The notes beneath the pieces were generated by a model. It was given only the letters and a program-made list of their open reading frames with translations. It was not told the origin of the DNA and did not search any database. A stretch of DNA of 44,450 nt. It comes from an uncultured bacterium. Lineage in GTDB: Bacteria > Patescibacteriota > Minisyncoccia > Phycocordibacterales > GWA1-40-21. The stretch's first letter is position 1. Every line of letters begins with the position of its first letter. A program made the position numbers and the translations under genes. The DNA lies in contig CAINLW010000057.1 in NCBI GenBank assembly GCA_903850545.1, positions 1-44,450 of the forward strand, in the 5' to 3' direction. This document shows positions 6,309 to 29,476 of this stretch, in pieces.

Positions 6309-7391
6309 ATGAAAAAAACAATTATAGAGAGTGTGAGAATAATATTAATAGCAACAATTTTCTCACTTGGCTTGGGTGTGGCCTTTGCGTGGTCAGGACC
6401 ATCAAGTAACCCTACTGATATTAATGTAGAGGCGCCGCTAAACGTCGGTTCCGATGCCCAAACAAAAGCAGGGTACCTTGCATTACAAGATGGAATTGGA
6501 GTAACAAGTATTATTTTTCCTGATGGAACTTTACAAACCACAGCCGGAGGTGCTGGTGGCAGTGGTATCCCAGTAAATACAATAACTTCTTTTAACCAGG
6601 CTACTTGTCCAACAGGATGGGTTCTTGCCAATGGTGAGAACGGAACCCCAGATTTAAGGGGTATTTTTGTCAGAGGTGCTGGTATAAGTACAAATTATAC
6701 TAATGCTGCAGGAGCATATAATACAGCGACGTTTGGACAATATCAAGTTGATTCTGTTATTTCTCATACGCACACTAGAATACTTGCCCCACAACCTGCT
6801 GGGTCAGGAAATGGAGTCCCACAATCATCTGAGGGTGGGCAAACACAAAGATCCACTTCTGACGCTGCTTTTGGGGGCCAGGAGACTCGCCCAGCATCTT
6901 ACGCTTTAATCTATTGTATGAAAACATCGGAGGATTCAGTGGTAAGTAATTCGATTTTTGGAAGTTCAACAAGTAATGTCTTTGTTCAAAATATTACAAA
7001 AAATTTTGGTATTGGAACAACAAATCCATCAGTTAAATTGGACGTTGCTGGTACCATTAAAGCTAGCAGTTACGTAGGAGTTTTTCCAGATTATACGAAT
7101 GGTGTTAGTGTCTCATTAAATACTGCACAACAAGCATCTTCAGATGGATATCTTAGTGTAGTGGCAGGGGGATCATATATGAACAATCTTCAGATTCAAG
7201 TTGGTTCCACCTCAGCAGTTGGAACTCTTATTTGGATGATGGGAGATGATATTAATAATAATACCAAAGGAGGATCGGCTCTTTTACCAATAAAAAAGGG
7301 TACTTGGTATAAGATACTTTCTCCAGGCTCTAATTGGATTGCACAATATGGTTATGAGAGTATATTAGCAAATTTTTATCCCGCCAATTAA
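6309..7391 (+). CDS. Secreted phage-tail-collar-domain / tail-fibre-like protein
   Basis: N-terminal anchor or signal (IILIATIFSLGLGVAFAWS). Tail-collar pattern CPTGWVLANG...PDLRGIFVRGAG...HTHT...ETRPASYALIYCMK. Fibre-like FGIGTTNPSVKLDVAGTIKA follows. The 5' third is much more GC-rich than the neighbouring DNA. Confidence 0.7.
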   Translation: MKKTIIESVRIILIATIFSLGLGVAFAWSGPSSNPTDINVEAPLNVGSDAQTKAGYLALQDGIGVTSIIFPDGTLQTTAGGAGGSGIPVNTITSFNQATCPTGWVLANGENGTPDLRGIFVRGAGISTNYTNAAGAYNTATFGQYQVDSVISHTHTRILAPQPAGSGNGVPQSSEGGQTQRSTSDAAFGGQETRPASYALIYCMKTSEDSVVSNSIFGSSTSNVFVQNITKNFGIGTTNPSVKLDVAGTIKASSYVGVFPDYTNGVSVSLNTAQQASSDGYLSVVAGGSYMNNLQIQVGSTSAVGTLIWMMGDDINNNTKGGSALLPIKKGTWYKILSPGSNWIAQYGYESILANFYPAN

Positions 7392-7560
7392 AAAACAATA
7401 TTTGTACTATAGAATTTGCGCACCCATATAACTTTCTCCGAAAAGTTTAAAATAGGACATAAATTGGTGATATATCATTAACAAAAGTAGGTAAACTTGC
7501 CAAGCACATAAGTTAAATAGTAAATATTAAATAATTAAGTCATATAATTCATTTATAATT

Positions 7561-8736
7561 ATGAATAAAAAAAGATTACATGTAATAGTATATTTGGCAC
7601 CCATCTTTTTTTCTTCTTTTTTTGTTGGATCAGTATTGGCAAATGTAACAGCACCTATTCCCAATTCTGACGGATTAAATTCTGTATTTGATAATTATAC
7701 CAAACAAGGTTATGGGGTTCTTTTACCGGATGCTAATAAAAGTATAACTAATACTACAAACACCGATTTTATTCCAATAAGTGGAGTTCTTCCTTATAAT
7801 AATTCAACTTATACTATTATCCCAATAACTAATCAAGTTGATTATAATACAGTTAACAATTCAGGATTTTATGTTTTAGCATCTTCTCGTAATCCCGAAA
7901 ACAGTTACCTGGCTTTTGATTATTTAACACAGGATTTTTATATAAAAACTCCGACTTCTGTCAATACAAACCTCGTTACTCCTGTTAAAGTTCCCGACCA
8001 AATTCTTCAAGATATTATCAACAATACAAGTTTATGTGATGAGGGATGTAGTACAGTTGGTGATGGCGAAGTCCTTTTTAATGAGGGAACGAATACTGGT
8101 GATAATAAATCAGGTTCTACTTTAAAAATGAATGGTGGAATTGAATCTACTCAAATTTCTGGAACCGTTAATAAAGCTGCGTCTGTAATATCTAATATTG
8201 ATTTTAATTATATTAATGTTTTACCTACCCTTGTTCGAGTTGTAACTAACTACATATATCGTATCAATGAACCTAACACTCCAGTTGATTGGCACACTAT
8301 TGTTTATGAGCCTCCTGCATATATTCCACCCGTTATGATTACGGCTGAGGAAACTGATACTGATTGGGATATTTATGAGGGAGGTGATGAACCTACAGTT
8401 GTAGATAATACACCAAATATTATGTTTATTGATTATAATATAGCTCATAATTCTGATTATGTTTGGGTTCCAAACACCCCAGTTCCTCCACCAGTTCCTA
8501 ACTGTGTACCTTCCGAATCAGTATTGGCTAGTAATATAAAACTTAATTTAAGTAATCCTCAGTCTGGAAAGGGAAATGTAACGATTTCTGCGGATGCATC
8601 AAACTATAAATTTTCTGGTTGGGGTGGACTGTGTGAGGGTACTAGTTCTTGTACCGTTACTAATTTAACAGCTAACAGCGCGAAGGAAGTGACTGCTGGT
8701 TTTAATATACCAACCATAAAGTCATGTGGTCAGTGA
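7561..8736 (+). CDS. Secreted protein with C-terminal InlB-B-repeat-like module (hypothetical)
   Basis: Signal peptide (VYLAPIFFSSFFVGSVLANV). Pro-rich linker PNTPVPPPVPNC. C-terminal YKFSGWGGLCEGTSSCTVTNLTANSAKEVTAGF resembles the Y.F.GW.G.C.G...C.V motif that recurs in the giant protein. Confidence 0.5.
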   Translation: MNKKRLHVIVYLAPIFFSSFFVGSVLANVTAPIPNSDGLNSVFDNYTKQGYGVLLPDANKSITNTTNTDFIPISGVLPYNNSTYTIIPITNQVDYNTVNNSGFYVLASSRNPENSYLAFDYLTQDFYIKTPTSVNTNLVTPVKVPDQILQDIINNTSLCDEGCSTVGDGEVLFNEGTNTGDNKSGSTLKMNGGIESTQISGTVNKAASVISNIDFNYINVLPTLVRVVTNYIYRINEPNTPVDWHTIVYEPPAYIPPVMITAEETDTDWDIYEGGDEPTVVDNTPNIMFIDYNIAHNSDYVWVPNTPVPPPVPNCVPSESVLASNIKLNLSNPQSGKGNVTISADASNYKFSGWGGLCEGTSSCTVTNLTANSAKEVTAGFNIPTIKSCGQ

Positions 8737-8769
8737 TCATTCAATCGTCAAATAAAATAATAATCTAAT

Positions 8770-11700
8770 ATGAAAATTAATCCTTTTTTTAGTTCAAAGA
8801 AGAATATCATAATAACTACAACAAGCATTTTTCTTATATTTTTTGGATTTTTTTATTTAGTTATTAATCAAAATAAAACTAGAATTATTCCAGACCCACC
8901 AAAACTAACATCACCAATAGAATCAAAGTCAGTATTACAAGCACCACTGGTTACAGAGACATCTTCAATTAAAGCAATTACATCAAATTTACCTGAGTTG
9001 TCGAGCATAATTATTTCGCCAAAAACATCCGTAGAAAATGTGTCAACTTCATCACTGCCATCTCCGACTTATTCAAAACAAACATATACACCAATTAAAT
9101 CTGAATATCCTAAACAGGTTATTGTCACACTTAAACCTTTGGCTGATGTAGAATCTGTGAAGGAAATTATTATAAAAAATGGTGGAAAAATAATTGATGT
9201 AAAAAACTGGCCAACAGGCAAAGTTATTATTGCAAATTATCCCGATAAAAAAACAGAGGAAGCTATTTATAGCAATTCATTATTCTCAAATTTAATGCGA
9301 GGAGTTGGATTTTCTTCTTTTGGAAATAAATTAAATGAAAGTGTAAATCTTATAGAGGAAGATGTGGAGACTGCACCATTGGCACAGATAACTGATTGGG
9401 GGGCAATCTATGTAAGGGCAGACAAAGCTTGGAGTGCCGGCGTGTTAGGAGAAGGAGTCAAAGTTGCAATTTTGGACACTGGTTCTCAGAAGGATCTTCT
9501 TGATACTTCGGCAAATATAGTAAAAGGTGCAAATTTTACAACTAATAAAACAACAGGAACAGTTGACAGCACTCAATGGGATGATGACGATGGTCACGGT
9601 ACTTCTATGGCAGGAATAATTGCAGCAGTAAACAATAATATTGGTGTCAACGGCATCGCACCTAAAGCAGATTTGTATATAGGTAAGGTTTTAGGCGGGG
9701 CATCTAGTACATGTATGAGTAGTTGTATCGTTGATGGTATTTATTGGGCAGTAAGTGAGGGTGTGGATGTAATAAATATGAGTCTAACTGCAGGAATTGG
9801 TAATTCAGCACTCGCAACCGCAGTAAAGTATGCTTATGATAACGGTGTTGTTGTCGTAGCTTCTAGTGGAAACGGAGGGCTTGATGGAGAGGGAATTAAT
9901 GCTCCCGCGATATATCCAGAGGTCATTGCTGTTGGTGCAATTGGAACTGATAACCTACGGGCCGCTTTTAGTTCTTATGGTTCACAACTTGAGCTCGTTG
10001 CTCCAGGAGACGGAATCATTGTGCCTCAGAGAGGAAATGTTTTCGGTGTAAGCAGAGGAACATCAGATTCAGCACCATTTGTAACTGGAGTGGTAGCACT
10101 TGTTTTATCTAAATATCCTACTATGACTCCAGTTGAGGTTCGTGCAAAACTGAACTCTTCGGCTATTGACCTTGGTGAACCCGGATGGGATAAATATTAT
10201 GGTTACGGATTGGTAAATGCACAAGACGCGCTAACCACAAGACCTCCTGCAAAAATAACACTCATTACTCCAAGTGGAGGTGAGCGCTGGATGAAAGGCG
10301 TTCAACATGAGATTCGATGGAGTTCGGACACTTTAACAAGTGAGGATTGGGTAAGTATCAAATTAATAAATAAGGATAACGGAGTCATGTATCCTGTTGG
10401 TATAAATATTAATAATAGTGGCAGTTTTATGCTTGCTATTCCTACGGATAAACCAGATTCTAGCAGTTATTATGTTGAGGTAAGTTGTGGAACCGATTTT
10501 ATAGGAACTTGTCAGTCATCAAAAAGTGAGACCTTCTCTGTTTTTTCACCACCTAGTACTCAAGCATTTAAAGTTTTTTCTCCAAATGGAGGTGAGAAGT
10601 GGCCACAAGGGGCGACTACATCTATAGAGTGGACAGCAAATTATCTCGGGGGATCTAATGTTGACGTTACTCTTATGCAAACACAACAAATACCAAAATA
10701 TTCTCTCAAGTCTCAGTCTGGAGATTGGGATAATGCGGTCTATCAATTTTTTGCCGAGCCTACACCCGGTTACTTTAATTGGTATTGGGTTTATAAATAT
10801 CTTGGAATTCGTGCGGACAACTGGTCCCGTGAGTCCGGTAGTTATTGGTTAGAGAAGTTACCAACTGATACTTGTGATGGTAATATTGGTACAGATATTA
10901 ATAATGGCATTTATGTATGTCCAAAAATTTCTTTATCAACGAGTACTTTTAGTTGTGTGGATTTTGCAAAATCAACAAAAAAGCCCAATGACTATTGGAG
11001 ACGTACTGTTAGTTGCGAATACAACAATAGTGATGTTGGAACAGAAGTCCCAGTATATTCTCTTGTTTTTGGCTCAGAGATTCGCACCCCATATTACTCC
11101 GGTTCGGGATGGTTTATCGGCAATCCACCAAAAGCAGATATGGTCGGTTATTTATACACGAGTAACACATCACCACCAGTAGCTCAGTATGATACTATAA
11201 GTTCAATGCCACCAGACACTTGTGATGGTGATTCCTCGCCCGCAGCAACTACAGGAATGTATTCTTGTCCAAAAACTAGCACGAGTGAACATATAAGATG
11301 TGTAGATACATGGCAGGCAACTCAGGGGATATACTATCAGGGTTATGTTGATTGTTCTTATATAAATGCAGGTGGAACAATACCACGTTATTCAATCAAG
11401 TCTCAATCGGGTGATTGGGATTATAATTCTTACTATGCATATATTGCCACCCCTTTTGTCGATAAGCCCACTCCTGCTTATTGGGTTTATAAGAATGTTA
11501 GAGATTTTAATTATTGGGATTCAGGTAAGTGGTCTGCGATCCATGATACTTGCGACGGTAATATTGGTACAGATATTAATAATGGCATTTATGTATGTCC
11601 TACCGTTTCTCCAGCGTCAAGTACTTTTAGTTGTACGGATATTGCAAGATCAAAAACTATGCCAGATAAGTATTGGGAGCGTAATGTTACTTGCCAATAT

Positions 11701-14700
11701 AATAACAGTGATATAGGAACTAAAGCACCCGTATATTCTTTTGTTAATGCGACGACCACTTGTTTTGATCCAACGTCAGGTTATTGTACGAATAGTTACT
11801 ACGGCACTAAGATGGACCTAGTTGGTTGGTATCTTGAAAATGGTGTTCCTTATATAAAATTAATACCACCCCCACCAGACACTTGCGATGGTAATGGTGG
11901 TAAGTATGTGGAAGGAGGATTGTTTCAATGTCCAACTACTTATACACAAGAACATTTGAAATGTGTAGATATATGGAAAGCATCAAATTATGATACCAGT
12001 AGTATGATTTATCAATCTAAAGTTGATTGTTCTTATGCAAAAAGTGGAACAGTTGATGTACCATATTCTCCAATACTAACAAACCCTGAGCCGGTGCTAA
12101 TAAAAGAAGTTCCTGTTAAAACACTAGCGGAAAATGCTGTAAATAAAGGATCTGCACAAGTTGTTTTACCTAGTGATATATCCGGTGACAAATATCGCGT
12201 GAAGATTAGTTGTAATAACTTTGCGGGCGAATGCACAGATGGATTTAGTACTAGTCAATTTAATATTGTTAAACTACAATCCCCAAAAACTCTAACTATT
12301 AGCAAAACTGGTATTGGTAATATTGTTGGTGGAAACACACCTTGTAACGTCAACTTGTCTTCGTGTGAACAAAAATATGAGACTTTAAATGAAGTAAATT
12401 TAACCAATGAAGTAAATTTAACTGCTGATGTACCTAGTAATTCTGGTTTGATGTTTGTTAGTTGGGAGGGGGCATGTACTGGTACTGACAAAGATAAGTG
12501 CAAAATCACGATGGATAGTGATAAAACTGTAAAAGCAAAATTTTCTAATAAATATCTTACTCTTACTGCGGTTACGGCTGATCCACTATCAAAATTTTAT
12601 GGCTGGGTCGGTGATTGTATTACTGATGGAACCTGCGAACCATTTTGGTCTGAAAAATGTGGTGTTGGGAGTGCTGATAAATGTCAAATCGTGGTAAGTA
12701 GTGATCAATCGCTTTCACCGATATTTAAATCTCTAAGTCCTTGCACAGCAGATTCATATGAATATTCAACATATGGAATTTGTGAACCAAACGGTAAACA
12801 GTATAAAACCGTTACAAATATACCAGATTGTTCAGGTGGAGTTAGTCCAACAAATTTGAGCAATAGTTGTACATATGTACCGCCAACTAATAGTATTAAT
12901 TTAACTGGTGACGCATGGTCAGACACTATTGGCTGGATAAGTTTTAGAGGAAAGACTTCTTCTCAGCCAGCTACTTCAATTTTAGGAACAACCGGTGACA
13001 ATCCTACAGCCATAACAGTAGATAAGGCTGGTAATGTTTATACAGCAAACACAGGATCAGGTAATATCACCAAAATTACTCCAACTGGTGTAGTAACCAA
13101 TATTGGAAGCTCAATTAATTCGACAACTATATTGGGGATAGCAGTCGACTCAGTTGGTAATATTTATACAACAGATGAGGAAACAAATAATGTTACCAAA
13201 ACTACCCCAGCGGGTGTATCAACTCATATTTTAAGCCCCGGTGAAGGGACTCGTGGAGTTGTAACCGATTCAGCCAACAATGTTTATGTCACGAATTCTC
13301 AATCAAATAATATTACAAAAATTACTCCAGCAGGCGTGTCATCTATTTTTGCCACAATAGCAAAATTTGGGTCTTATCCTTCTGGTATAGTTATGGATTC
13401 GGCTGGTAACTTTTATACAGGAAATGGTAATTCAAAGAGTGTTGGTAAAATTACCACAAACGGCGTATCTACCATTTTTGGAAATACAGGAATTGGTCCA
13501 TATAACATAGCAATAGATAAATTCGGTAATATTTATACAGCAAATGCAGATTCATTTGATATTACTAAAATTACTCCTGCTGGTGCAACAACCACCTTTG
13601 CAACTTTTAGTTCTAGCCCAGGTAGTATAATAACCGATTCTATTGGTAATGTTTACGTTACGATTCAAGGCGTTATTATAAAAATTTCTCAAGATGGCAA
13701 ACAAAAAATTTATGCAAGTATCGGAGCTTCCGCTATTACAATAGATTCGTCTGACAATATTTATGCAATCACGAGTTCTGATGATTCGAGCACAGTTACC
13801 AAAATATCACTTGTTGAAGGGCCAGAGTACGGTGTTTCTATGGACAAATCGACAGGGGTTCTCAATGGTTATGCGTGGTCTGATAATATTGGATGGATAA
13901 AATTTGGTACTGATTTGTCTGGCTTTCCAATTAATGATAATGGCGGATCAGTCTCAGTAAGTGCCAGAATAGTTTCAGGTAAACTTGTTGGTTGGGCAAG
14001 AGCTTGTGCAGGAATGTATGATACTGAACAAGACCAAACATCACCAAACAATAGTTGTAGTGGAAGATCTAGAACAGACGGTTGGGATGGCTGGATTAGT
14101 TTTAAAGGATTTGGTACACATGGATCTTCCTACGAAGTTTCGTTTAATAATCCAAATTTTTCAGAGTATGCTTGGGGATCTGATGTAGTAGGCTGGATTA
14201 GTTTTAATGGAACTACTGCTGATGGTAATACTTATGGAGTAAAACTAGAATCAACAGATACCTCTTTAACAGACATTTCTTTAATAGCACCACCTAGTAT
14301 AAGTGCAAGTCCTTCTTATATTTTTAAAAACAGTACATCAACCATTACTTGGAGTTCACCCGATGCAAGTTCTTGTACTTTTAAAAAAGGAGATGTATCA
14401 ATTGATATTGGCACGACTGCGACTTCTGGTTCTTATATAACAGAGAGACTTAATACCGCTACAGTTTATACTGCTATTTGTTCAAACAGCAATCATACTG
14501 CAACTGGAATAAATTCGGCGACGGTAAATATAAAGCCAAATCCTGATTGCAACATTAATAATGAATGCTCAGATGGGTATTGGGGACTTTGTATTAATGG
14601 AACACAAACTTGTGTTGATGGAGGATATAAATATACATGTGACGCTCCAACAAAAAAATGTGTTGTTGGTGGCGTTGATGGTGGCGGAGGCAGAGGCAAC

Positions 14701-22066: not shown

Positions 22067-22089
22067 AATGAAGTTGTAAATTTGAAAGT

Positions 22090-22121: not shown

Positions 22122-22140
22122 ATTGATTTATATTTTACTG

Positions 22141-22167
22141 TTGAACTTAATTATTTTCTGGTATAAT
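22141..22167 (+). promoter_or_regulatory. Putative pilB operon promoter (extended -10)
   Basis: TTGAAC (22141-22146), 15-nt spacer, TGgTATAAT (22159-22167). Sits directly upstream of the structured leader. Confidence 0.5.
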
Positions 22168-22296: not shown

Positions 22297-24063
22297 ATGA
22301 TCCTAGAAAACAAACAACTAAAAGATTTTTTAATTGATACAGGTCTTGTTACAAAGACAGAGTATGATGAAATTGAAAATCTTTACAATAAGGGAAAAAT
22401 AGTAGATCCTCCAGAAAAGGTCTTGGTCAGTCAGGGAAAAATTTCTGAAGATGATTTGCGTAGAGCTCAGGCTTACGTGTCGGGTATTCCTTTTGTTGAT
22501 TTAAAAGATCAAAAAATCGATTTGTCTGTGCTTTCTCTTATCCCAGAACCCCTAGCAAGAAAGAATAATATAATAGCTTATAGAAAAAACATTGATTCGC
22601 TTGAAGTGGCGATGCTTGATATTCAAAATTTATCTACGATTGAATTTGTAAAAAAGAAAGTTGGACTAAAAATTTTACCGAGATTGACCGATTCTTCGTC
22701 AATAAAAAATGCAATACTTCAATATCAAAAAAGTTTGAAAGCAGAGTTTGGCGATTTGATACAAAAAGATATCCAATCTTTAAAAGATTCCGGTAGTTTG
22801 GAGATTGGAGTAAAAGGGGAGAGTATGGAAGATTCTTTGAAAAAAATGGCAGAAGATATTCCCATTGTTCGTATTGTTGAAACGCTTTTAAAACACGCAG
22901 CTTTACAAAACGCTTCAGATATTCACATCGAATGTATGGAAAATGACGCGCTTGTCAGATATAGAATTGATGGACTTTTGCATGACGCGATGATTCTTCC
23001 AAAAATTGCCGCCACCGGTATAACCGCTAGAATAAAAGTGCTTTCAAATTTAAAACTTGATGAAAAAAGGTTACCGCAAGACGGAAGATTTAATGCCGAT
23101 ATTAATGGAGAAAAAGTTTCTTTTAGAGTTTCTATCATACCGACATATTTTGGAGAAAAAACGGTTATGCGACTTTTGCGAGAAAATGCTGGTTCGTATT
23201 CTTTAGAGACTATGGGTTTTCACGGCGTAAATCTTGAAAGATTACATGAAGCAATGAAGCAAGCAAATGGAATGATTCTTACAACAGGTCCAACAGGAAG
23301 TGGAAAAACAACAACTCTTTATACAATATTAGAGTTACTTAATTCAGTAGGTGTAAACATTGCAACGATTGAAGACCCGATTGAATATCAGGTGGCTAGA
23401 ATAAACCAAACTCAGGTAAAACCCGAAATTGGTTTTTCTTTTGCAAATGGACTTAGATCTTTAGTAAGACAAGATCCAGATATAATAATGGTGGGGGAAA
23501 TTAGAGATAATGAAACAGCTTCTCTTGCTGTGAACGCTGCTCTTACTGGTCATGTGGTGCTTTCAACTCTTCACACAAACTCGGCTGCCGGAGCTATACC
23601 GAGGCTTATGGATATGAAAATCGAACCTTTTCTTCTTGTTTCAACCATAAATATTGTTATTGCTCAGAGACTAATAAGAAAGCTTACAGGAGCAAAAGAA
23701 AGATATATTTTAACAAAAGACGAATTGGCATCTCTCGCGAGAATTGTAGATTTGGATAAAGTTTTGGCAATATTAAAAGAGGAAAATATTGTTGGAAAAA
23801 ATGACGACTGGAAAAATATCTATTTTTATAAAGCGAAAGAATCAATAGATTCAAAAGACGGTTATTCTGGAAGAATTGGAATTCACGAGGTATTGAAAAT
23901 GACACCAGCAATAAGGGATCTTGTTATAAAGGGATCAACTTCTCAAGACATTGAAAATCAGGCAAAAAAAGAAGGAATGTTAACGATGATTGAAGACGGG
24001 ATTTTTAAATGTGTAACAGGAATGACGACAATTGAGGAAGTTTTGAGGGTCGTTACGGAGTAA
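22297..24063 (+). CDS. pilB: Type IV pilus assembly ATPase (GspE/PilB family)
   Basis: GSPII_E N-terminal-like region. Walker A GPTGSGKTTT, Walker B/Asp box RQDPDIIMVGEIRD, His box LTGHVVLSTLHTN. Confidence 0.93.
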   Translation: MILENKQLKDFLIDTGLVTKTEYDEIENLYNKGKIVDPPEKVLVSQGKISEDDLRRAQAYVSGIPFVDLKDQKIDLSVLSLIPEPLARKNNIIAYRKNIDSLEVAMLDIQNLSTIEFVKKKVGLKILPRLTDSSSIKNAILQYQKSLKAEFGDLIQKDIQSLKDSGSLEIGVKGESMEDSLKKMAEDIPIVRIVETLLKHAALQNASDIHIECMENDALVRYRIDGLLHDAMILPKIAATGITARIKVLSNLKLDEKRLPQDGRFNADINGEKVSFRVSIIPTYFGEKTVMRLLRENAGSYSLETMGFHGVNLERLHEAMKQANGMILTTGPTGSGKTTTLYTILELLNSVGVNIATIEDPIEYQVARINQTQVKPEIGFSFANGLRSLVRQDPDIIMVGEIRDNETASLAVNAALTGHVVLSTLHTNSAAGAIPRLMDMKIEPFLLVSTINIVIAQRLIRKLTGAKERYILTKDELASLARIVDLDKVLAILKEENIVGKNDDWKNIYFYKAKESIDSKDGYSGRIGIHEVLKMTPAIRDLVIKGSTSQDIENQAKKEGMLTMIEDGIFKCVTGMTTIEEVLRVVTE

Positions 24064-24143
24064 CGATATACGAATAAACATACGAATATTACCCGAATGA
24101 TACGAATGAAGTACGAATTTTATGCGAATGTTACGAATAATAC
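24064..24143 (+). repeat. Degenerate tandem array of seven (T)ACGAAT units, left flank of the GxxExxY cassette
   Basis: ATACGAAT, ATACGAAT, CCCGAAT, ATACGAAT, GTACGAAT, ATGCGAAT and TTACGAAT spaced every 9-12 nt, beginning directly after the pilB TAA. Confidence 0.8.
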
Positions 24144-24161
24144 ATCAATCTAAATTTAAAA

Positions 24162-24539
24162 ATGGAATATAAAAAAGTAGGAGAAAAAGTTATATTTCCT
24201 GAGTTATCTTATACAATTAATGGAGTTTTGTTTTCTGTACACAACGATTTGGGCAGGTTTGCTAGAGAAAAACAGTACGGTGATCTTTTAGAAAAGAGAT
24301 TGAAAGAAATAAATTTATTATATAAACGTGAATTGCCGATATCAGGTTCTGGCAACATAGCTGATTTCGTTATTGAGGATAAGGTTTTATTGGAAATTAA
24401 ATCTACCAGGTTTTTGACAAAAGATTCTTATAGACAAATACAAAACTACTTACAACAAACAGGTTTGAAACTTGGTTTTCTTGTGAATTTTAGAAGCGGA
24501 TATTTAAAAATAGTTAGGATTATTAATATAAGTAAATGA
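24162..24539 (+). CDS. GxxExxY-family protein (PD-(D/E)XK-like fold), small selfish-cassette-type gene
   Basis: The family pattern as I recall it is VH..LG....E..Y...L...L......RE........DF(V/L)(V/I)EDKV(L/I)(L/V)E(I/L)K........Q...YL...GLKLG.L(V/I)NF. It matches VHNDLGRFAREKQYGDLLEKRL...ADFVIEDKVLLEIKS...QIQNYLQQTGLKLGFLVNF. Confidence 0.8.
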   Translation: MEYKKVGEKVIFPELSYTINGVLFSVHNDLGRFAREKQYGDLLEKRLKEINLLYKRELPISGSGNIADFVIEDKVLLEIKSTRFLTKDSYRQIQNYLQQTGLKLGFLVNFRSGYLKIVRIINISK

Positions 24540-24577
24540 TTCTTTCAAGTTCTAGTAATTTTAGTGTATAATATTGA

Positions 24578-24620
24578 TTATTCGTAATCGATTCGTAAAA
24601 TTCGCATAACATTCGTATCA
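24578..24620 (-). repeat. Inverted TACGAAT-unit array, right flank of the GxxExxY cassette
   Basis: Four ATTCG(T/C)A units. The reverse complement ATGATACGAATGTTATGCGAATTTTACGAATCGATTACGAATAAT mirrors the inner 44 nt of the left array (TGATACGAATG...TTACGAATAAT). It ends 1 nt before the pilC ATG. Confidence 0.8.
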
Positions 24621-24621
24621 T

Positions 24622-25830
24622 ATGAAATTTAAATTCAAAGCGGTAAAAAAAGATGGAGGAAAATATGAAGGGGAAAAAGAATCCGCTGATAGATTTTCTC
24701 TATACGAGGAATTAAAAGCGGAGGGAGATACACTTCTTTCTACAGTTGAAGTAAAAAAATCAAAAATAGAAATTAACCTACCCTTTTTTAATTATGTACC
24801 TGAGCATCAAAAAATAATTTTTGCGCAAAATTTGGGATCAATGATAAATGCAGGATTGTCTCTTGCAAAGGCTTTAAATATTTTGCAAAAACAAATAAAA
24901 AATAAAAGATTTAAACAAATTATTGAATCACTTGAACAAAATGTAAGAAACGGAAAAACCTTGAGTCAATCTTGTTCGGAATTTCCAGATGTGTTTCCAA
25001 AATTATTTACATCAATGGTTAAGGCAGGTGAGGAGTCTGGACGACTTTCTCAATCATTGAAAATAGTTGCAACCCAATTAGATAATAGTTATAAACTAAA
25101 AAAGAAAATAAAGGGAGCAATGATATATCCTGGAATTATTATGTCCGTAATGATTGTTATCGGAGTACTTCTGATGATTGTGGTAGTGCCAAGTATTACA
25201 GCTACTTTTAAAGATTTAAATATAGAACTACCTTTTCTTACCAAGGCTATTATAGCAATAAGTGATTTTCTTAAAAATGATATTCTCCTTGTTCTTTTCG
25301 GTGTAATAATTATTATTACTGGTTTTTACTTATTTCTTAAATCAAAATTTGGTAAAAGAGTATTTGATTTTACAGTTTTAAAACTACCTGTTATTGGCGA
25401 GCTTGTAAAAGAAACAAATTCTGCGAGATTAACCAGAACCATTTCTTCTTTGTTGTCTTCCGGTGTTTCTTATACTGAAGCAATTTCGATTACAAGAGAT
25501 GTTGTTCAAAATAGATATTATAAAGATATTTTGACTACTGCTATGAGTACGGTAGAAAAAGGGGGTGCGATTTCAAGTGTTTTTATTGAAAACGAAAAAT
25601 TGTGTCCAATCTTTCTTGCCGAGATGACCGTTGTTGGAGAAGAAACAGGAAAGCTTCCCGAAATGCTTCTAGAGGTAGCACTTTTTTATGAAGAAGTTGT
25701 GGATCAAAAAACAAAAAATATGTCGACGATTATTGAACCTGTTTTGATGGTGATTATAGGAATTGCTGTAGGATTTTTTGCATTAGCAATTATAAAACCG
25801 ATTTATTCTTTGACGGATTCAATACAATAA
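24622..25830 (+). CDS. pilC: Type IV pilus platform protein (GspF/PilC family)
   Basis: Two T2SS-F repeats (FAQNLGSMINAGLSLAKAL... and LTRTISSLLSSGVSYTEAI...), three TM segments and a length of 402 aa, typical of PilC. Confidence 0.92.
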   Translation: MKFKFKAVKKDGGKYEGEKESADRFSLYEELKAEGDTLLSTVEVKKSKIEINLPFFNYVPEHQKIIFAQNLGSMINAGLSLAKALNILQKQIKNKRFKQIIESLEQNVRNGKTLSQSCSEFPDVFPKLFTSMVKAGEESGRLSQSLKIVATQLDNSYKLKKKIKGAMIYPGIIMSVMIVIGVLLMIVVVPSITATFKDLNIELPFLTKAIIAISDFLKNDILLVLFGVIIIITGFYLFLKSKFGKRVFDFTVLKLPVIGELVKETNSARLTRTISSLLSSGVSYTEAISITRDVVQNRYYKDILTTAMSTVEKGGAISSVFIENEKLCPIFLAEMTVVGEETGKLPEMLLEVALFYEEVVDQKTKNMSTIIEPVLMVIIGIAVGFFALAIIKPIYSLTDSIQ

Positions 25831-25860: not shown

Positions 25861-25911
25861 AAATACAAAATACGGATGCAAATGAAAATTAAAAAATAAA
25901 TTAAAGACAAA

Positions 25912-26370
25912 ATGTTTAAAGGTTTAAAAAGACAGAAAAGAGCGTTTACCCTCATTGAAATAATTATTGTTATAGCGATATTAGTGATTCTGGTTTCAAT
26001 TACAGTTTCTTCTTTTGGTAATGTTGGAGGAAGCCAAGCGTTAGACACAACGACAACTTCTGTAATTTCTGTTTTAAATGAGGCCAAATCAATGGCAGTT
26101 TCTTCAAAAGATGCATCAGATTATGGTGTAAGAATTTTAAATAATAAATTAATTTCATTCAAAAATAGTTATGGCACAGAAAATAAAGAATTAACGATTT
26201 CTAGTTTGGTTTCAATTAGCACCTCCACAGGAATTGGGACTGACGTAATTTTTAATAATGTTTCTGGAAACGCAAATGCCAGTGGAACAATCACCGTTAC
26301 TGTTTTGAAGGATCAAACAAAAAGCAATACAATAAGAGTGTATTCTACTGGGGTAATTGAGAAACTATAA
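25912..26370 (+). CDS. Type IV pilin / pseudopilin (prepilin-type N-terminal methylation motif)
   Basis: KRAFTLIEIIIVIAILVILV: class III signal with Glu at +5 and a hydrophobic helix. Ala replaces the usual Gly at -1. Confidence 0.85.
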   Translation: MFKGLKRQKRAFTLIEIIIVIAILVILVSITVSSFGNVGGSQALDTTTTSVISVLNEAKSMAVSSKDASDYGVRILNNKLISFKNSYGTENKELTISSLVSISTSTGIGTDVIFNNVSGNANASGTITVTVLKDQTKSNTIRVYSTGVIEKL

Positions 26371-26372
26371 TA

Positions 26373-26402
26373 ATAGTATTAGTGTCTAGTATAAGTATAA
26401 GG
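26373..26402 (+). repeat. GTAT-rich post-stop element, copy d
   Basis: ATAGTATTAGTGTCTAGTATAAGTATAAGG starts 3 nt after the pilin TAA and ends 10 nt before the next ATG. Confidence 0.7.
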
Positions 26403-26412
26403 AAAATTTTAA

Positions 26413-26904
26413 ATGAGTAAAAATAATTACAAAAAAGGATCAGGGTTGGCAGAAATTTTAGTTGCTGTTTTTATTTTTTCAATTATTTTAGGTTCGCTTG
26501 TCGAAGTCGCCAGCATTTATTTAGCGGGTTCTGGAGAAAGTTTGAAATCTACTAAAGGCGCATATCTTGCCGGGGAGGGAATAGAAGCAGTAAAAATAAT
26601 TCGTGATACTGGTTGGGGCAACATCACTAGTTTTACTGATAATACAAATTATTATTTATATTTCGATACGTCTTCCTCAACTAATAATATTTGGAAAGCA
26701 ACCTCGACCATATCATTAGTGGACTCGATTTTTACAAGGACTTTCAAATCAAATTCTGTTTACAGAGACATAAATGGTAGAATCGTTCAAAGTGGTGGAA
26801 CTTTAGATTTGCATACCAAAAAAATAACAGTTTCTATTTCTTGGAAATTAAAAAATGCAACCACCACCAAATTACTTTCAACTTATATTGCTGATATTTT
26901 GTAA
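26413..26904 (+). CDS. Minor pilin-like protein (degenerate prepilin signal)
   Basis: KKG/SGLAEILVAVFIFSIILGSL has Gly at -1 and Glu at +5 if cleaved after KKG, followed by a hydrophobic helix. Sits inside the pilus operon. Confidence 0.6.
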   Translation: MSKNNYKKGSGLAEILVAVFIFSIILGSLVEVASIYLAGSGESLKSTKGAYLAGEGIEAVKIIRDTGWGNITSFTDNTNYYLYFDTSSSTNNIWKATSTISLVDSIFTRTFKSNSVYRDINGRIVQSGGTLDLHTKKITVSISWKLKNATTTKLLSTYIADIL

Positions 26905-27004
26905 AATACGGTCGCACTTATAGGACGGTTGTGCGACATGATTTCGCAAAATCAAAAATTATACGAACAAAGCGAATTTCAACGAAAATTTAAAATACAA
27001 AAAA

Positions 27005-27637
27005 ATGCTTAATTTATTTAAAAAAATATGTGGAGGAAAAAACCGAGGACTCGCCTTTTCCCGAAGCGAAGCTTCTCCCCAAGGCAAGACCTCTGTTTTT
27101 ATAGTTACGCGACTAGTCCGCGTCCAGTTTGCGTCTGGTCTGCGTAAGGAAGGATTCACATTAGTGGAAATGATAATCTATGCTGCTCTTATGGCAATTA
27201 TTACAATTGCCGTTACACAATCTTTAGTTGTAGTTTTAAAATCCAACAGAACTTCTTTCGCTGAAACAAATTTAAGAAACTCAGGATATTCTGCTATGGA
27301 GGGAATGTTGAGGGAAATATATGCGTCAGAAAATATCGATTTACCTTCTGCCACTGGAAGCATTCTTCAGATGAAACAAAATAGTGCCTCAACCACAGTA
27401 AGATTTGCTGTTTCTTCGAGCACACTCAATTTTTATGAAGGATCAAGTTCAAGTACAGCTGTTTTAATAGGTCCACAGACTTCAAAAAATATTTTAGTAA
27501 CAAGTCTAACTTTTACAAAAATAAATACTGGAAAATCGTTAGCGGTCAGAATACAAATGCAATTAAACACTACTGTAAACGGAATAACAAAAAACGAATG
27601 GTTTTATGGAACGGCTATCCTAAGGGGGTCGTACTAA
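27005..27637 (+). CDS. Pilin-like protein with an unusually long (about 48 aa) N-terminal leader
   Basis: Canonical LRKEG/FTLVEMIIYAALMAIITIAV motif at residues 45-66. I found no in-frame ATG/GTG/TTG between the ATG at 27005 and the motif. The leader is encoded by a locally GC-rich segment. Confidence 0.65.
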   Translation: MLNLFKKICGGKNRGLAFSRSEASPQGKTSVFIVTRLVRVQFASGLRKEGFTLVEMIIYAALMAIITIAVTQSLVVVLKSNRTSFAETNLRNSGYSAMEGMLREIYASENIDLPSATGSILQMKQNSASTTVRFAVSSSTLNFYEGSSSSTAVLIGPQTSKNILVTSLTFTKINTGKSLAVRIQMQLNTTVNGITKNEWFYGTAILRGSY

Positions 27638-27640
27638 GAA

Positions 27641-27670
27641 ATAGTATACAGTATAAGTATTTAGTATATG
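27641..27670 (+). repeat. GTAT-rich post-stop element, copy e
   Basis: ATAGTATACAGTATAAGTATTTAGTATATG starts 4 nt after the TAA and runs into the ATG at 27668. Confidence 0.7.
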
Positions 27671-29476
27671 GAAGAAATACAAAACAAAACAAAACGATTA
27701 AATATTAAAGATGGTTATGTGATGTTACTCACCGCTGTTATTTTTATGATGGTTTCTCTTATAATTATATTTGGTCTTGCTACGCCGATAACCAAACAAA
27801 TTTTTGCTACTAGAGATATTTGGAGCGCAAAGCAGAGTTATTATCTTTCAGAAGCTGGAGCGGAGGATGTAATGTATAGATTGAAAGATAGTACATTTGC
27901 CTCAAAACTTGGAACAACAGAAACATTAACTCTAGATGGTTATAATGCCATTACCCAAATCACAGCTGATACAAATGGGAAAACAATAAGCACCTTATCC
28001 GATCAAAATGGTTATAAAAAAAGTTTAGAAACAAAAGTTGTAATGGGATCTGGAACGTCTTTTAATTATGGAATTCAAACAGGAGATGGAGGATTTACTA
28101 TAACTGGTGGTTCTCGTGTTGTTGGAAATGTTTACTCAAATGGAGATATTTTAGGTGGTGCAGGTATTCATATTACAGGTTCAGCTATTGCTGCTTCTGG
28201 CGGGAGTGTTTTTAAAGATGAAAATAATGAAACTCCATTGCCACCTTCAAGTAGTATTACCTTTAATAATACTGGTGCTTCAAGAGATTTCGCGCAAAGT
28301 TTTCAACCGGGGACAACCTCAGTAATCCAAAAAATTAGAATATATATTAAAAAAACAAATTCACCTGCTAGTTTTGAGGTTGATTTAATGTCAGATAATT
28401 CGGGAAATCCAGGTTCTGTTTTGGCGGAGTCCACACTTTCTTCAAGTCTTGTAACCACAAATTATGGTTGGATAGATTTAGTTTTTAGTTCAAGTGTTAC
28501 TTTAACAAAGGACACAACTTACTGGTTTGTTATAAAAGGAGATGTTAAAAGCGGAAAAACATCAACAGATACATATACTGTTGGAGCAAATAATTTATAT
28601 ACAAGAGGCGTAGCAAAAACAGGTGTAATAGGAGGAACTTGGAACATAACAGGTCTTGATGGATATTTTTCTCTATATTTAAGTTCAGTTCACGGAAAAA
28701 TTTTAGGTAATGAAGGAAATTATTTTTATATCGGATCTACTTCCACAGACATGGCTTGGTCAGGAGATGTAAGTCATGTAAGTGTTACAGGTGACCTTTA
28801 TTGTCAGACCGGTGTAAATAATGCCAATGGAAAAACTTGTAACACTAGTAGAGAACTTCCCGGGACTGTTTCAATGCCAGTTTCAGAGGCGAATATTGAA
28901 CAATGGAAATCAGAAGCTGTTCTCGGGGGAACATATAATGGTAATTATTTAGTTGATTGGGATGGAGATGTTTTAGGTCCAAGAAAAATAACTGGTAATT
29001 TAACCGTAAATGGTGGAGGAACTCTTATAGTTACTGGTACAGTGTGGGTACAAGGGAATCTTATTGTTACAGGTGGAGGGAAAGTAAAAATTTCTCCAGC
29101 ACTCGGTGCCAACAGTGTTATTCTTGTGACAGATAAATACGCACAAATTGATGGTGGTGGACAATTTGAGGGTTCAGGAACAGTTGGTAGTTATCCAGTT
29201 GTTGTATCAACTTCTGTTTGTCCAAATACAACACCTTGTTCAACAAATAATTCCGCAATTTCTCTTTCTGGAGGAGCTGGAGCTGTAGTATTAGTTGCCC
29301 CATATGGAAAAGTAAATGTAAATGGAGGATCTGGGGCGCGTTCAGTTAGTGGAGATTCAATATATATAAGTGGGGGTGGTACGGTTACCTATGAGACAGG
29401 CTTGGCAAATCTTTCGTTTAGCAGTGGCCCTTCTGGCGGATGGTCAATTTCAGGATGGAAGGAACTTGAGAATTAG
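27668..29476 (+). CDS. Large pilus-associated protein (PilX-like N-terminal helix, Gly-rich beta-helix-like body)
   Basis: N-terminal KDGYVMLLTAVIFMMVSLIIIFGLA helix without Glu+5. Gly-rich repeats (GGSRVVGNVYSNGDILGGAGIHITGSAIA; GNLTVNGGGTLIVTGTVWVQGNLIVTGGGKVKI). Last gene of the pilus operon before a strong terminator. Confidence 0.45.
   Translation: MEEIQNKTKRLNIKDGYVMLLTAVIFMMVSLIIIFGLATPITKQIFATRDIWSAKQSYYLSEAGAEDVMYRLKDSTFASKLGTTETLTLDGYNAITQITADTNGKTISTLSDQNGYKKSLETKVVMGSGTSFNYGIQTGDGGFTITGGSRVVGNVYSNGDILGGAGIHITGSAIAASGGSVFKDENNETPLPPSSSITFNNTGASRDFAQSFQPGTTSVIQKIRIYIKKTNSPASFEVDLMSDNSGNPGSVLAESTLSSSLVTTNYGWIDLVFSSSVTLTKDTTYWFVIKGDVKSGKTSTDTYTVGANNLYTRGVAKTGVIGGTWNITGLDGYFSLYLSSVHGKILGNEGNYFYIGSTSTDMAWSGDVSHVSVTGDLYCQTGVNNANGKTCNTSRELPGTVSMPVSEANIEQWKSEAVLGGTYNGNYLVDWDGDVLGPRKITGNLTVNGGGTLIVTGTVWVQGNLIVTGGGKVKISPALGANSVILVTDKYAQIDGGGQFEGSGTVGSYPVVVSTSVCPNTTPCSTNNSAISLSGGAGAVVLVAPYGKVNVNGGSGARSVSGDSIYISGGGTVTYETGLANLSFSSGPSGGWSISGWKELEN

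What the first reader, a model, noticed from the sequence alone, without database searches (positions are those of the whole stretch)
6309..29476. 23-kb co-directional surface block: adhesin/protease genes fused to a type IV pilus operon (candidate host-interaction system)
Every gene from 6309 to 29476 is on the + strand, and only one strong terminator (22090-22121) lies inside the block. The order is tail-collar protein, InlB-B-repeat-like protein, 2186-aa S8 protease mosaic, Lnt-like acyltransferase, NHL+DUF1566 protein, 752-aa paralogue, then pilB-(cassette)-pilC, three pilin-like genes and a 602-aa pilus-associated protein. All products have signal, anchor or prepilin N-termini. Three of the large proteins share Ig-like (T.TW.S....C...G) and four-Cys modules. 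Type IV pili have been implicated in host attachment and DNA uptake in CPR bacteria. The physical coupling of pilus machinery to a giant anchored protease, beta-propellers and a lectin-like DUF1566 domain therefore suggests one functional unit for attachment to, and processing of, a partner-cell surface. I do not recognise this gene order as a described system.
Basis: inference. Interest (0 to 1): 0.7.

Follow-up and report, generated by a model that had tools for sequence, protein, structure and literature searches.

The report
Pilus operon beside variable surface-protein island
This is not one 23-kb machine: an ordinary, separately transcribed type IV pilus operon of a tiny CPR bacterium sits next to a fast-changing island of secreted proteins, and only two uncharacterised gene families in that island recur beside pilus genes in relatives.

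Summary
The gene layout and most annotations are right. The "single fused unit" reading is not.

The + strand run is not special to the block. It extends from 5286 to 34467 and includes metG, tatD and other housekeeping genes.

The pilus operon (22297-29476) has strong terminators on both sides and its own extended -10 promoter. Both features are conserved in relatives.

In 80 related genomes the backbone is polA-tig-nusA(-) ... pilB-pilC-pilins-p602-AI2E-metG. The nusA-pilB gap ranges from about 0.5 to 17.5 kb and its content differs between genomes. The S8 protease, Lnt-like gene, NHL/Lcl_C protein and 391-aa gene appear beside pilB in no relative.

Two families do recur there:
- Secreted "GYAWS-repeat" proteins (p752, and the C-terminal half of the protease). 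They have no Pfam, NCBIfam or PDB match.
- Signal-peptide tail-fibre-like proteins with a conserved "AWTGPT..." mature N-terminus (the 360-aa gene).

Of 46 informative metagenome loci that carry the repeat module, 21 lie in the nusA/pilB context, 14 hold a translation-GTPase gene (mostly fusA/tuf) and 11 are elsewhere.

Best reading: a conserved pilus operon, an ancestral fibre/repeat-protein cassette, and a lineage-specific insertion. Interest is moderate.

The parts
6309..7391 (+). FIB: 360-aa secreted tail-collar-fibre-like protein. It has a signal peptide, then the conserved mature N-terminus 'AWSGPSSNPTDINVEAPLNVG..Q.K.G', then a variable C-terminal domain.
   Evidence: PHROG tail collar fibre/tail protein, E 1e-13; no Pfam hit. 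The N-terminal family was found in 55 ORFs of 38 related loci, often in tandem and next to the GYAWS gene.
7561..8736 (+). 391-aa secreted protein of unknown function; lineage-specific.
   Evidence: Only a sub-threshold Flg_new_2 (InlB B-repeat) hit, 22.6 bits against a 23.6 cut-off. No homologue in any of 160 related loci.
8770..15330 (+). 2186-aa membrane-anchored mosaic. Order: N-terminal TM anchor, S8 subtilase (aa 227-480), Ig-like and Cys-rich repeats, NHL propeller (aa ~1400-1650), GYAWS module (aa ~1686-1830), then an Ig/Cys-rich/C-terminal part paralogous to p752.
   Evidence: Peptidase_S8 183 bits, NHL/Vgb_lyase. The DTGS / HGTSMAG / GTSDSAP triad motifs are read directly from the sequence. 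37% identity to p752 over 519 aa. Relatives match only 4-11% of its length, in the module and C-terminal part.
15475..16980 (+). 501-aa polytopic Lnt-like acyltransferase; lineage-specific in this position.
   Evidence: LNT_N 70 bits, CN_hydrolase 24.4 bits. TIGR00546 scores 102.6 bits, below its 132.9 cut-off. The catalytic Cys aligns with P. aeruginosa Lnt. Absent from all related loci.
17059..19779 (+). 906-aa secreted NHL beta-propeller protein with Ig-like domains and a C-terminal Lcl_C/DUF1566-like region; lineage-specific.
   Evidence: NHL 102 bits; Lcl_C 30 bits, below the 34.9 cut-off. Relatives match only its Ig-like segment, 6-15% coverage.
19808..22066 (+). MOD: 752-aa secreted protein carrying the GYAWS beta-hairpin-repeat module (aa ~276-390, nt 20633-20977), Ig-like and Cys-rich domains, and a conserved ~90-aa C-terminal domain. 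It is an enlarged relative, in the same position, of the ~310-450-aa module gene that sits upstream of pilB in relatives.
   Evidence: No Pfam, NCBIfam or PHROG hit. The module gave 2196 cluster representatives at E<=1e-3. Position upstream of pilB in relatives. AF2 model pLDDT 73.5, all-beta hairpins, no PDB or BFVD match.
22087..22124 (+). Intrinsic terminator ending the p752 transcription unit.
   Evidence: 17-bp stem with 8 GC pairs. It dominates the MFE fold. Equivalent hairpins follow the upstream gene in L004-L007, L089, L121 and L125.
22159..22167 (+). Extended -10 promoter (TGGTATAAT) of the pilus operon.
   Evidence: Conserved block TT..TGGTATAATTA upstream of pilB in L003-L010 and in L089, L102, L121 and L125. 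Coordinates.
22297..24063 (+). pilB, the type IV pilus assembly ATPase.
   Evidence: T2SSE 396 bits plus MshEN. 62-88% identical in Paceibacteria relatives.
24097..24621 (+). Inserted cassette: 125-aa PD-(D/E)XK_3 gene (24162-24539) flanked by 45-nt inverted TACGAAT-array repeats.
   Evidence: PDDEXK_3 70 bits. Inverted repeat I1. Present in the window and L002; absent from L001, L003, L007 and L009.
24622..25830 (+). pilC, the platform protein.
   Evidence: T2SSF x2, 189 bits. Conserved directly after pilB in about 70 loci.
25912..27637 (+). Three prepilin-like genes (152, 163 and 210 aa).
   Evidence: N_methyl motif hits; weak GspH hit for the first. Hydrophobic N-termini. Conserved order in relatives.
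27668..29476 (+). 602-aa protein with a pilin-like N-terminal TM helix (no E5) and a choice-of-anchor R / DUF4082-like domain. It is the conserved last gene of the pilus operon and a candidate pilus-associated adhesin.
   Evidence: NF041539 choice_anch_R at 41 bits, above its cut-off of 30. Weak DUF4082. Homologues at 28-74% identity always follow the pilin genes.
29516..29558 (+). Intrinsic terminator ending the pilus operon.
   Evidence: 20-bp stem followed by TTTTTT.

Best explanation
The block is a composite of three layers, not one system.

1. A conserved, self-contained type IV pilus operon (22297-29476): pilB, pilC, three prepilin-like genes and a 602-aa pilin-like large protein. It has its own extended -10 promoter and terminators on both sides. 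A small cassette flanked by inverted repeats has recently landed between pilB and pilC.

2. Upstream, in the divergent nusA<->pilB gap, lies a variable island of Sec-exported surface proteins (6309-22066). Its ancestral core is a two-family cassette. One member is a tail-fibre-like protein with a conserved mature N-terminus (the 360-aa gene). The other is a secreted GYAWS beta-hairpin-repeat protein (p752).

3. Between these two core genes, this lineage alone has acquired about 12 kb (7561-19779). The insert holds the 391-aa gene, a giant anchored S8 protease whose C-terminal 500 aa duplicate p752, an Lnt-like acyltransferase and an NHL/Lcl_C propeller protein.

Inferred mechanism: the island products are exported and displayed on the cell surface, where they bind a partner-cell surface (fibres, Ig-like, propeller and lectin-like domains) and degrade it (S8). 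They diversify by duplication, domain shuffling and gene replacement. The pilus is made and regulated as a separate unit. Shown here: gene content, transcriptional punctuation and synteny patterns. Inferred: surface display, host-binding role, and any cooperation with the pilus.
For: - Backbone synteny polA-tig-nusA(-) ... pilB-pilC-pilins-p602-AI2E-metG-tatD-MTase across relatives.
- The nusA-pilB gap measures 17.5 kb here; 4.6-6.6 kb in L002, L008, L009 and L012; 9.7 kb in the P0002 contig; 1.2-1.4 kb in L029 and L125; about 0.5 kb in L013, L015, L023 and similar loci. The gene content differs between them.
- A close relative, L101 (PilB 87% identical), has the compact form FIB(392 aa)-MOD(468 aa)-363 aa-pilB.
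- No S8 catalytic domain, lnt, NHL906 or g391 homologue occurs in 160 related loci.
- S8 C-terminus and p752 are paralogues.
- Terminators at 22087-22124 and 29516-29558. Conserved pilB promoter and upstream-gene terminators in relatives.
- Module-centred scan: 12 of 33 loci >=8 kb have pilB downstream on the same strand. Of 46 informative loci, 21 are in the nusA/pilB context. The binomial P is below 1e-7 against a 5% chance expectation (my own estimate of the chance rate). This figure ignores shared ancestry between loci.
- FIB genes neighbour MOD in 27 of 80 loci.
- Hydrophobic N-termini on all six island products.
Against: - No expression, localisation or binding data exist; surface display and host binding are inferred from domains only.
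- The association with pilB may largely reflect vertical inheritance within one Paceibacteria clade. It is also inflated because the query alignment was built from proteins that lie next to pilB.
- The MOD/FIB cassette also sits in the fusA/tuf neighbourhood (14 loci scored by a translation-GTPase ORF cluster; at least six show fusA-MOD-(FIB)-tuf). It lies elsewhere in 11 loci.
- Only +/-10 kb around each hit was visible, so relocated homologues of the lineage-specific genes elsewhere in those genomes cannot be excluded.
- Rapid divergence could hide orthology of some island proteins.
Confidence: 0.62

Rival explanations
1. The whole 23-kb run (adhesins, protease, Lnt, propellers and pilus) is one co-evolved functional unit for attaching to and processing a partner-cell surface.
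For: All genes are co-directional with short gaps of 28-230 nt. All six upstream products are exported or anchored. A module-bearing gene lies upstream of pilB in many relatives. T4P and secreted peptidases are both highly expressed in parasitic Paceibacteria (PMC10936435).
Against: Four of the six surface genes are absent from the pilB neighbourhood in every relative examined. A terminator and a separate conserved promoter precede pilB. Co-directionality continues into metG, tatD and other housekeeping genes. Island content is replaced between genomes whose PilB is 80-88% identical.
Confidence: 0.08
2. Pure insertion hot spot. The divergent nusA-pilB intergenic region simply tolerates insertions, and surface-protein genes accumulate there with no functional relation to the pilus.
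For: Gap size ranges from about 0.5 to 17.5 kb with different cargo, including a radical-SAM gene in L008. The same MOD/FIB cassette is found in the fusA/tuf neighbourhood in 14 loci (scored by a translation-GTPase ORF cluster) and elsewhere in 11. Each unit has its own terminator and promoter.
Against: Three of five stand-alone module proteins come from other CPR lineages whose pilus operon has a different architecture (pilM-N-O-pilB-pilin-pilT-pilC). All three lie within 3-8 kb of pilus genes (the negatives are). One of them directly follows a Shufflon_N pilin-like gene. In the window's clade the module gene is nearly always the gene nearest pilB, on the same strand.
Confidence: 0.27
3. Degraded prophage or tailocin. 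The tail-collar fibre gene and its neighbours are remnants of a phage tail module.
For: g360 matches PHROG tail collar fibre families. Relatives carry Peptidase_S74 chaperone-type fibres in the same island. A Cas2/PaaX_M-like gene lies at 5286-5666.
Against: No sheath, tube, baseplate, portal, terminase or integrase gene is present in the window, and there is no tRNA. The fibre-like proteins carry Sec signal peptides. The GYAWS module has no relative in 2.9 million viral contigs and no BFVD structural match.
Confidence: 0.03

Closest known systems
Type IV pilus loci of Patescibacteria/CPR (e.g. Saccharibacteria T4P: PMC9894109, PMC12206443) and monoderm-type T4P operons
   Same: PilB ATPase, PilC platform, several prepilin-like genes with the N_methyl motif, and a large pilin-like protein at the operon end. 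There is no secretin, as expected for a monoderm. T4P are known to drive motility and host association in cultivated CPR.
   Different: The window holds no pilD, pilT or pilM/N/O; they may lie elsewhere in the genome. The organism belongs to the Paceibacteria/Taylorbacteria group, not Saccharibacteria. No function has been tested.
Variable region next to pilB in Pseudomonas aeruginosa (pilA alleles and tfp accessory genes between pilB and tRNA-Thr). Cited from my own knowledge, not checked in the literature tools here.
   Same: A conserved pilus-assembly gene borders a strain-variable region holding surface or pilus-related genes. The position is conserved and the content is not.
   Different: Here the variable genes are large Sec-secreted multidomain proteins and tail-fibre-like proteins, not pilin alleles or pilin glycosylation genes. 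They are separately transcribed.
PilY1/PilC-type pilus-associated adhesins and minor-pilin tip complexes
   Same: The 602-aa last gene follows the pilin-like genes and has a pilin-like N-terminal helix plus a large beta-rich body. This is the arrangement expected for a tip-associated adhesin.
   Different: There is no sequence similarity to PilY1. Its only domain hit is choice-of-anchor R / DUF4082. The upstream island proteins have Sec-type rather than prepilin-type N-termini, so they are not pilins.
Phage tail fibres and tail-collar fibres with a conserved N-terminal attachment region and variable receptor-binding C-termini
   Same: The FIB family has a conserved ~45-aa mature N-terminus. 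It is followed by variable C-terminal domains: collar, GNVGIGT-type fibre repeats, or Peptidase_S74 chaperone. The genes occur as tandem paralogues, e.g. 7-8 in L031.
   Different: They are encoded by cells, carry signal peptides, have no other phage structural genes nearby, and are paired with a non-phage GYAWS-repeat gene.
Highly expressed secreted peptidases and Ig/PKD-domain proteins of archaea-parasitising Paceibacteria (Kuroda et al. 2024, PMC10936435)
   Same: Same class of organism and the same general repertoire: T4P, signal-peptide peptidases and Ig-like/PKD-like surface proteins proposed to mediate host attachment.
   Different: That work reports expression and predicted folds of individual genes. 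It does not describe a nusA-pilB island, the GYAWS module or the AWTGPT fibre family.

Membership tests
Type IV pilus system | PilB-type assembly ATPase and PilC/T2SSF platform protein | tested here: met
   T2SSE 396 bits plus MshEN; T2SSF 189 bits with two domains.
Type IV pilus system | Prepilin-like subunits with an N-terminal methylation motif and hydrophobic helix | tested here: met
   N_methyl hits in the three genes at 25912-27637. Hydropathy 2.6-3.6.
Type IV pilus system | Prepilin peptidase (PilD), retraction ATPase (PilT) and PilM/N/O alignment proteins | tested here: inconclusive
   None is encoded in the 44-kb window. They may lie elsewhere in the genome, which is not available.
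Single operon / fused transcription unit (6309-29476) | No internal terminator or promoter between the surface genes and the pilus genes | tested here: not met
   17-bp-stem terminator at 22087-22124 followed by a conserved TGGTATAAT promoter at 22159-22167. The same punctuation occurs in relatives.
Conserved gene cluster (functional unit by synteny) | The same gene families linked to pilB across related genomes | tested here: not met
   S8 domain, lnt, NHL906 and g391 are absent within 10 kb of pilB in 80 genomes. Only the GYAWS module and the FIB N-terminal family recur.
Subtilase (peptidase S8) | Full-length S8 domain with Asp/His/Ser catalytic motifs | tested here: met
   PF00082 covering 1-288 of 288 positions, 183 bits. 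DTGS, HGTSMAG and GTSDSAP read in the sequence.
Apolipoprotein N-acyltransferase (Lnt) | Equivalog-level score and the Glu-Lys-Cys triad | tested here: inconclusive
   TIGR00546 scores 102.6 bits, below its 132.9 cut-off. LNT_N and CN_hydrolase are above their Pfam cut-offs. The Cys aligns with P. aeruginosa Lnt. Glu and Lys were not verified.
Lcl_C / DUF1566 lectin-like domain | Pfam gathering score | tested here: not met
   30.0 bits against a 34.9 cut-off, E 7e-7. It is a probable distant relative, not a certified member.
InlB B-repeat (Flg_new_2) | Pfam gathering score | tested here: not met
   22.6 bits against a 23.6 cut-off, for a single 44-aa stretch.
Phage tail / tailocin module | Tail structural genes (sheath, tube, baseplate) next to the fibre gene | tested here: not met
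   Only the collar-fibre-like domain of g360 matches PHROGs. The neighbouring genes do not, and the module is absent from viral contigs.
Diversity-generating retroelement target locus | Reverse transcriptase plus template and variable repeat pair | tested here: not met
   No RT domain in any window ORF searched. No TR/VR-like long repeat pair. The bAvd-like hit at 32314-32679 is below its cut-off and is a 23S_rRNA_IVP family protein.

The most novel reading that the evidence does not exclude
The GYAWS-repeat proteins and the signal-peptide tail-fibre-like proteins with the conserved 'AWTGPTxxPPxxNVxAPxNVGxxxQxKxG' mature N-terminus may form an undescribed, CPR-specific surface-fibre system. 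In this reading the repeat protein is a docking or base module and the fibres are exchangeable receptor-binding units. The system is recurrently encoded beside the type IV pilus operon and works with it in host recognition. The window shows an expanded version in which a subtilase and an NHL propeller have been fused onto the docking module.
Probability: 0.2. Interest if true: 0.75.

Novelty: new variant of a known kind. Interest (0 to 1): 0.42.

Why it matters
How ultrasmall CPR/Patescibacteria recognise and hold on to their hosts is an open question. Type IV pili are the only experimentally supported component, and so far only in Saccharibacteria.

This analysis removes an attractive but unsupported idea, a 23-kb pilus-protease-adhesin machine. 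It replaces that idea with a testable, narrower lead. Two uncharacterised and abundant protein families form a conserved cassette. One is the GYAWS-repeat module, with about 2200 cluster representatives and no Pfam, PDB or viral match. The other is the AWTGPT-N-terminus fibre family. The cassette sits next to pilB in many Paceibacteria and diversifies quickly, which is the behaviour expected of host-range determinants.

The analysis also shows that the nusA-pilB gap is a variable locus that could serve as a marker for strain-level surface variation.

Tried and rejected
- Rfam on the whole window, and permissively on 22000-22400: nothing above threshold. The CsrC hit covers only the terminator hairpin.
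- The structured pilB leader is not conserved in relatives, so I did not pursue it as a riboswitch.
- Foldseek of the GYAWS module model against PDB and BFVD gave no match at E<=0.001. A profile search against PDB sequences gave no hit at E<=10.
- Pfam at E<=10, NCBIfam and PHROGs on p752 and on stand-alone module proteins gave nothing meaningful.
- A viral-contig scan with the module found no relatives. The scan with the FIB N-terminus alignment could not be run because no stretch was conserved enough.
- I tried a linker-fused MOD + FIB-N-terminus alignment for a docking prediction. MAFFT misaligned the FIB fragments onto the MOD region, so the prediction was not run.
- DGR hypothesis rejected: no reverse transcriptase and no TR/VR repeats.
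- Prophage/tailocin hypothesis rejected.
- P0196 (2159 aa) was checked as a possible orthologue of the giant protease. It shares only GYAWS repeats.
- Word-indexed searches with p752 (16 hits) and the FIB N-terminus (27 short hits) recovered few relatives and no annotation.
- Literature searches found no description of these families or of a nusA-pilB island.

Full report
**Observation.** Domain searches support most labels.
- The 360-aa product matches phage tail-collar fibre families (PHROG E 1e-13) but no Pfam model.
- The 391-aa product has only a sub-threshold InlB-B-repeat hit.
- The 2186-aa product has a full Peptidase_S8 domain (183 bits) and an NHL/Vgb_lyase-type propeller. The catalytic motifs are visible in the sequence.
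- The 501-aa product has LNT_N and CN_hydrolase domains, but scores below the Lnt equivalog cut-off.
- The 906-aa product has NHL repeats and a sub-threshold Lcl_C/DUF1566 hit.
- The 752-aa product has no family hit, but is 37% identical over 519 aa to the C-terminal quarter of the protease.
- Downstream lie pilB, a PD-(D/E)XK_3 gene, pilC, three N_methyl prepilin-like genes and a 602-aa protein. The last one has a choice-of-anchor R / DUF4082-like domain.

Three parts of the observation do not hold as stated.
- The + strand run is not specific to the block. It starts at 5286 and continues to 34467 through an AI-2E transporter, metG, tatD and a methyltransferase. The rest of the window is housekeeping.
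- The pilus operon has strong hairpins on both sides: 22087-22124 and 29516-29558.
- PilB, the PD-(D/E)XK protein and the N-terminus of PilC have no hydrophobic N-terminal segment.

**Transcriptional structure.** The 230-nt gap before pilB holds the 17-bp-stem terminator. It also holds an extended -10 promoter, TGGTATAAT, at 22159-22167. An alignment of the pilB upstream regions of ten close relatives shows that this promoter block is conserved. It also shows that the upstream gene ends in its own GC-rich hairpin in L004-L007. Even where the upstream gene ends only 60-74 nt before pilB (L089, L121, L125), the gap consists of a compact terminator followed directly by TATAAT. The pilus operon is therefore a separate, conserved transcription unit. 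It is adjacent to the surface genes, not fused to them.

**Synteny from the pilus side.** A scan of one genome per GTDB species with PilB returned 80 loci with up to 10 kb of flank. All the close ones are Paceibacterota/Taylorbacteria-type CPR MAGs. tblastn of every window protein against these loci shows a stable backbone: polA-tig-two small genes-nusA(-), then pilB-pilC-three pilins-p602-AI2E-metG-tatD-methyltransferase. The content between nusA and pilB is not stable.
- The gap is 17.5 kb in the window.
- It is 4.6-6.6 kb in L002, L008, L009 and L012, where PilB is 80-86% identical.
- It is about 0.5 kb, with no island, in L013, L015, L017, L023-L026, L032, L034 and L077, where PilB is 63-69% identical.

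The ORFs in the gap of close relatives are different large proteins of 450-1574 aa. Seven of the nine I scanned have no Pfam domain. One of the other two is a radical-SAM enzyme. No locus contains a homologue of the S8 catalytic domain, the Lnt-like gene, the 391-aa gene, or more than the Ig-like segment of the NHL protein. The best full-length homologue of p752 (P0002, 33% identity) lies in the same nusA-pilB gap of another genome. Its neighbours differ again: a Peptidase_S74 protein, an fn3 protein and others.

**What does recur.** Three short modules of the window's island proteins are found in the relatives' gap proteins.
- A roughly 110-aa repeat module with the motif GYAWSxNIGWIxF ... 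GWARAC ... WDGWISF, at p752 aa 276-390 and S8 aa 1686-1830.
- The C-terminal ~90 aa shared by p752 and the protease.
- The first ~60 aa of the 360-aa protein.

I aligned the repeat module (A1) and used it to scan metagenome contigs. There were 378 relatives and the best 80 were kept.
- Of the 33 loci of at least 8 kb, 12 have pilB-pilC-pilins-p602 downstream on the same strand, usually with nusA(-) upstream.
- The module gene in these loci is typically 310-450 aa. The module follows the signal peptide directly, and the gene ends 6-140 nt before pilB in seven of them.
- ORF clustering of all 80 loci gives 21 in the nusA/pilB context and 14 with a translation-GTPase (EF-G/EF-Tu-type) neighbour. 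At least six of those 14 have the order fusA-module-(fibre)-tuf, and one hit (L120) looked to me like a different GTPase. A further 11 long loci have neither context, and 34 are too short to judge.
- Five stand-alone module proteins of 170-205 aa came from other CPR lineages. Three of them lie 3-8 kb from a differently organised pilus operon, pilM-N-O-pilB-pilin-pilT-pilC. One of the three directly follows a Shufflon_N pilin-like gene. The other two are unlinked to pilus genes.

Against a rough 5% chance expectation, which is my own estimate for genomes of about 0.7-1 Mb, these frequencies are far too high to be random. The figure ignores shared ancestry. The query alignment was also built from pilB-adjacent proteins, which favours retrieving orthologues in the same position.

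**The fibre family.** The N-terminus of the 360-aa protein defines a family found in 55 ORFs of 38 related loci. Each member has a signal peptide and then a conserved mature N-terminus, AW(T/S)GP(T/S)xxPPxxNVxAPxNVGxxxQxKxG. After that the C-termini vary. They carry tail-collar motifs, GNVGIGT-type fibre repeats or Peptidase_S74-type C-terminal chaperone sequences. These genes neighbour the module gene in 27 of 80 metagenome loci, in both the pilB and fusA/tuf contexts. They can be tandemly amplified, with seven to eight copies upstream of pilB in L031. A close relative of the window, L101 (PilB 87% identical), has the compact arrangement fibre(392 aa)-module(468 aa)-363 aa-pilB. The simplest history for the window starts from an ancestral fibre + module cassette upstream of pilB. 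About 12 kb (7561-19779) was then added between its two genes. The protease gene arose partly by duplication of the module gene.

**Nature of the module.**
- An exhaustive HMMER search finds 2196 cluster representatives at E<=1e-3. Most are 300-450 aa with the module near the N-terminus.
- Named sources call them hypothetical proteins of Patescibacteria.
- There is no Pfam, NCBIfam or PHROG match. There is also no PDB sequence match and no relative in viral contigs.
- An AlphaFold2 model from a 76-sequence alignment has moderate confidence (pLDDT 73.5, pTM 0.69). It consists of successive beta-hairpins, each built on a G(Y/W)AWS...GWIxF unit.
- The model has no significant structural neighbour in PDB or BFVD.
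- By analogy only, aromatic GW-type hairpin repeats in monoderm surface proteins bind cell-wall polymers. A role in binding a glycopolymer, on the cell's own wall or on a host's, is plausible but untested.

**Interpretation.** The evidence supports a composite: a standard CPR type IV pilus operon, an adjacent variable surface-protein island, and a lineage-specific expansion within that island. The general idea that T4P and secreted proteases or adhesins serve host interaction in CPR is already in the literature (PMC9894109, PMC12206443, PMC11665869, PMC10936435). The specific 23-kb "system" is not conserved and is not one transcription unit. What is new and worth following is the fibre + GYAWS-module cassette and its frequent position next to pilB. 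Whether that reflects function or only inheritance and a permissive site remains open. The fusA/tuf context and the separate terminators argue for caution.

**Scores.** Interest is 0.42. The headline claim is mostly not supported and the pilus operon is ordinary. However, the analysis exposes two large uncharacterised CPR protein families with a non-random genomic association that bears on host recognition.

Noticed in passing
window 24097-24621: The 125-aa PD-(D/E)XK_3 gene between pilB and pilC is bracketed by 45-nt imperfect inverted repeats built from TACGAAT/ATTCGTA hexamer arrays. The whole ~560-bp unit is present in the window and L002. It is absent from L001, L003, L007 and L009, where pilC follows pilB within 100 nt. 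It looks like a small mobile cassette.
   Followed up: partly
window 32281-32710: The 121-aa 23S_rRNA_IVP (bAvd-like) gene between metG and tatD is flanked by inverted copies of TAGTATAAGTAT. The gene gave no match in any related locus, and in L002 tatD follows metG directly. It appears to be a second small cassette flanked by inverted repeats.
   Followed up: partly
window 15341, 25845, 26387, 27649, 32281, 32294, 32686, 32699, 33475, 36968, 36981: The dispersed motif TAGTATAAGTAT (at most 1 mismatch) occurs 11 times against 0.56 expected. Most copies are intergenic (one, at 33475, lies at the 3' end of tatD), often as tandem half-sites just upstream of start codons, including three sites inside the pilus operon. 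It may be a regulatory or repeat element.
   Followed up: partly
window 2334-2369 and 33496-33531: A 36-nt repeat (89% identical) containing the hairpin TCCCGCGAAGGCGGGA occurs at two distant intergenic sites (D10).
   Followed up: no
window 22170-22296: The pilB 5' leader downstream of the promoter folds into several stable hairpins (z = -8.4 for 22060-22300, terminator included). It has no Rfam match. Relatives have either very short leaders or a different long leader shared by L001, L002 and L010.
   Followed up: partly
L097, L103, L109, L117, L143, L159 (metagenome loci): In another set of CPR lineages the GYAWS-module gene, often with a fibre-family gene, is inserted between fusA (EF-G) and tuf (EF-Tu) on the same strand. 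This suggests strong expression and a second preferred genomic site for the cassette.
   Followed up: partly
window 15475-16980: An Lnt-like apolipoprotein N-acyltransferase homologue sits in a presumably monoderm CPR bacterium. It is below the equivalog cut-off but its catalytic Cys aligns. I saw no lipobox in the N-termini of the neighbouring secreted proteins (read by eye). Its substrate is unclear.
   Followed up: partly
window 12899-12947 / 13859-13907 (S8 protein aa ~1377-1392 and ~1697-1712): In the giant protease, a first GYAWS-type hairpin (LTGDAWSDTIGWISF) is separated from the rest of the module by the ~300-aa NHL propeller. The propeller therefore appears to be inserted inside the repeat module (D5, 75).
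   Followed up: no
window 5286-5666: A Cas2/PaaX_M-like 126-aa gene lies at the nusA-proximal edge of the island, with no other cas genes or CRISPR array in the window.
   Followed up: no
L008 7731-9023: In one close relative, the nusA-pilB gap also holds a radical-SAM/SPASM enzyme gene among the surface-protein genes.
   Followed up: no
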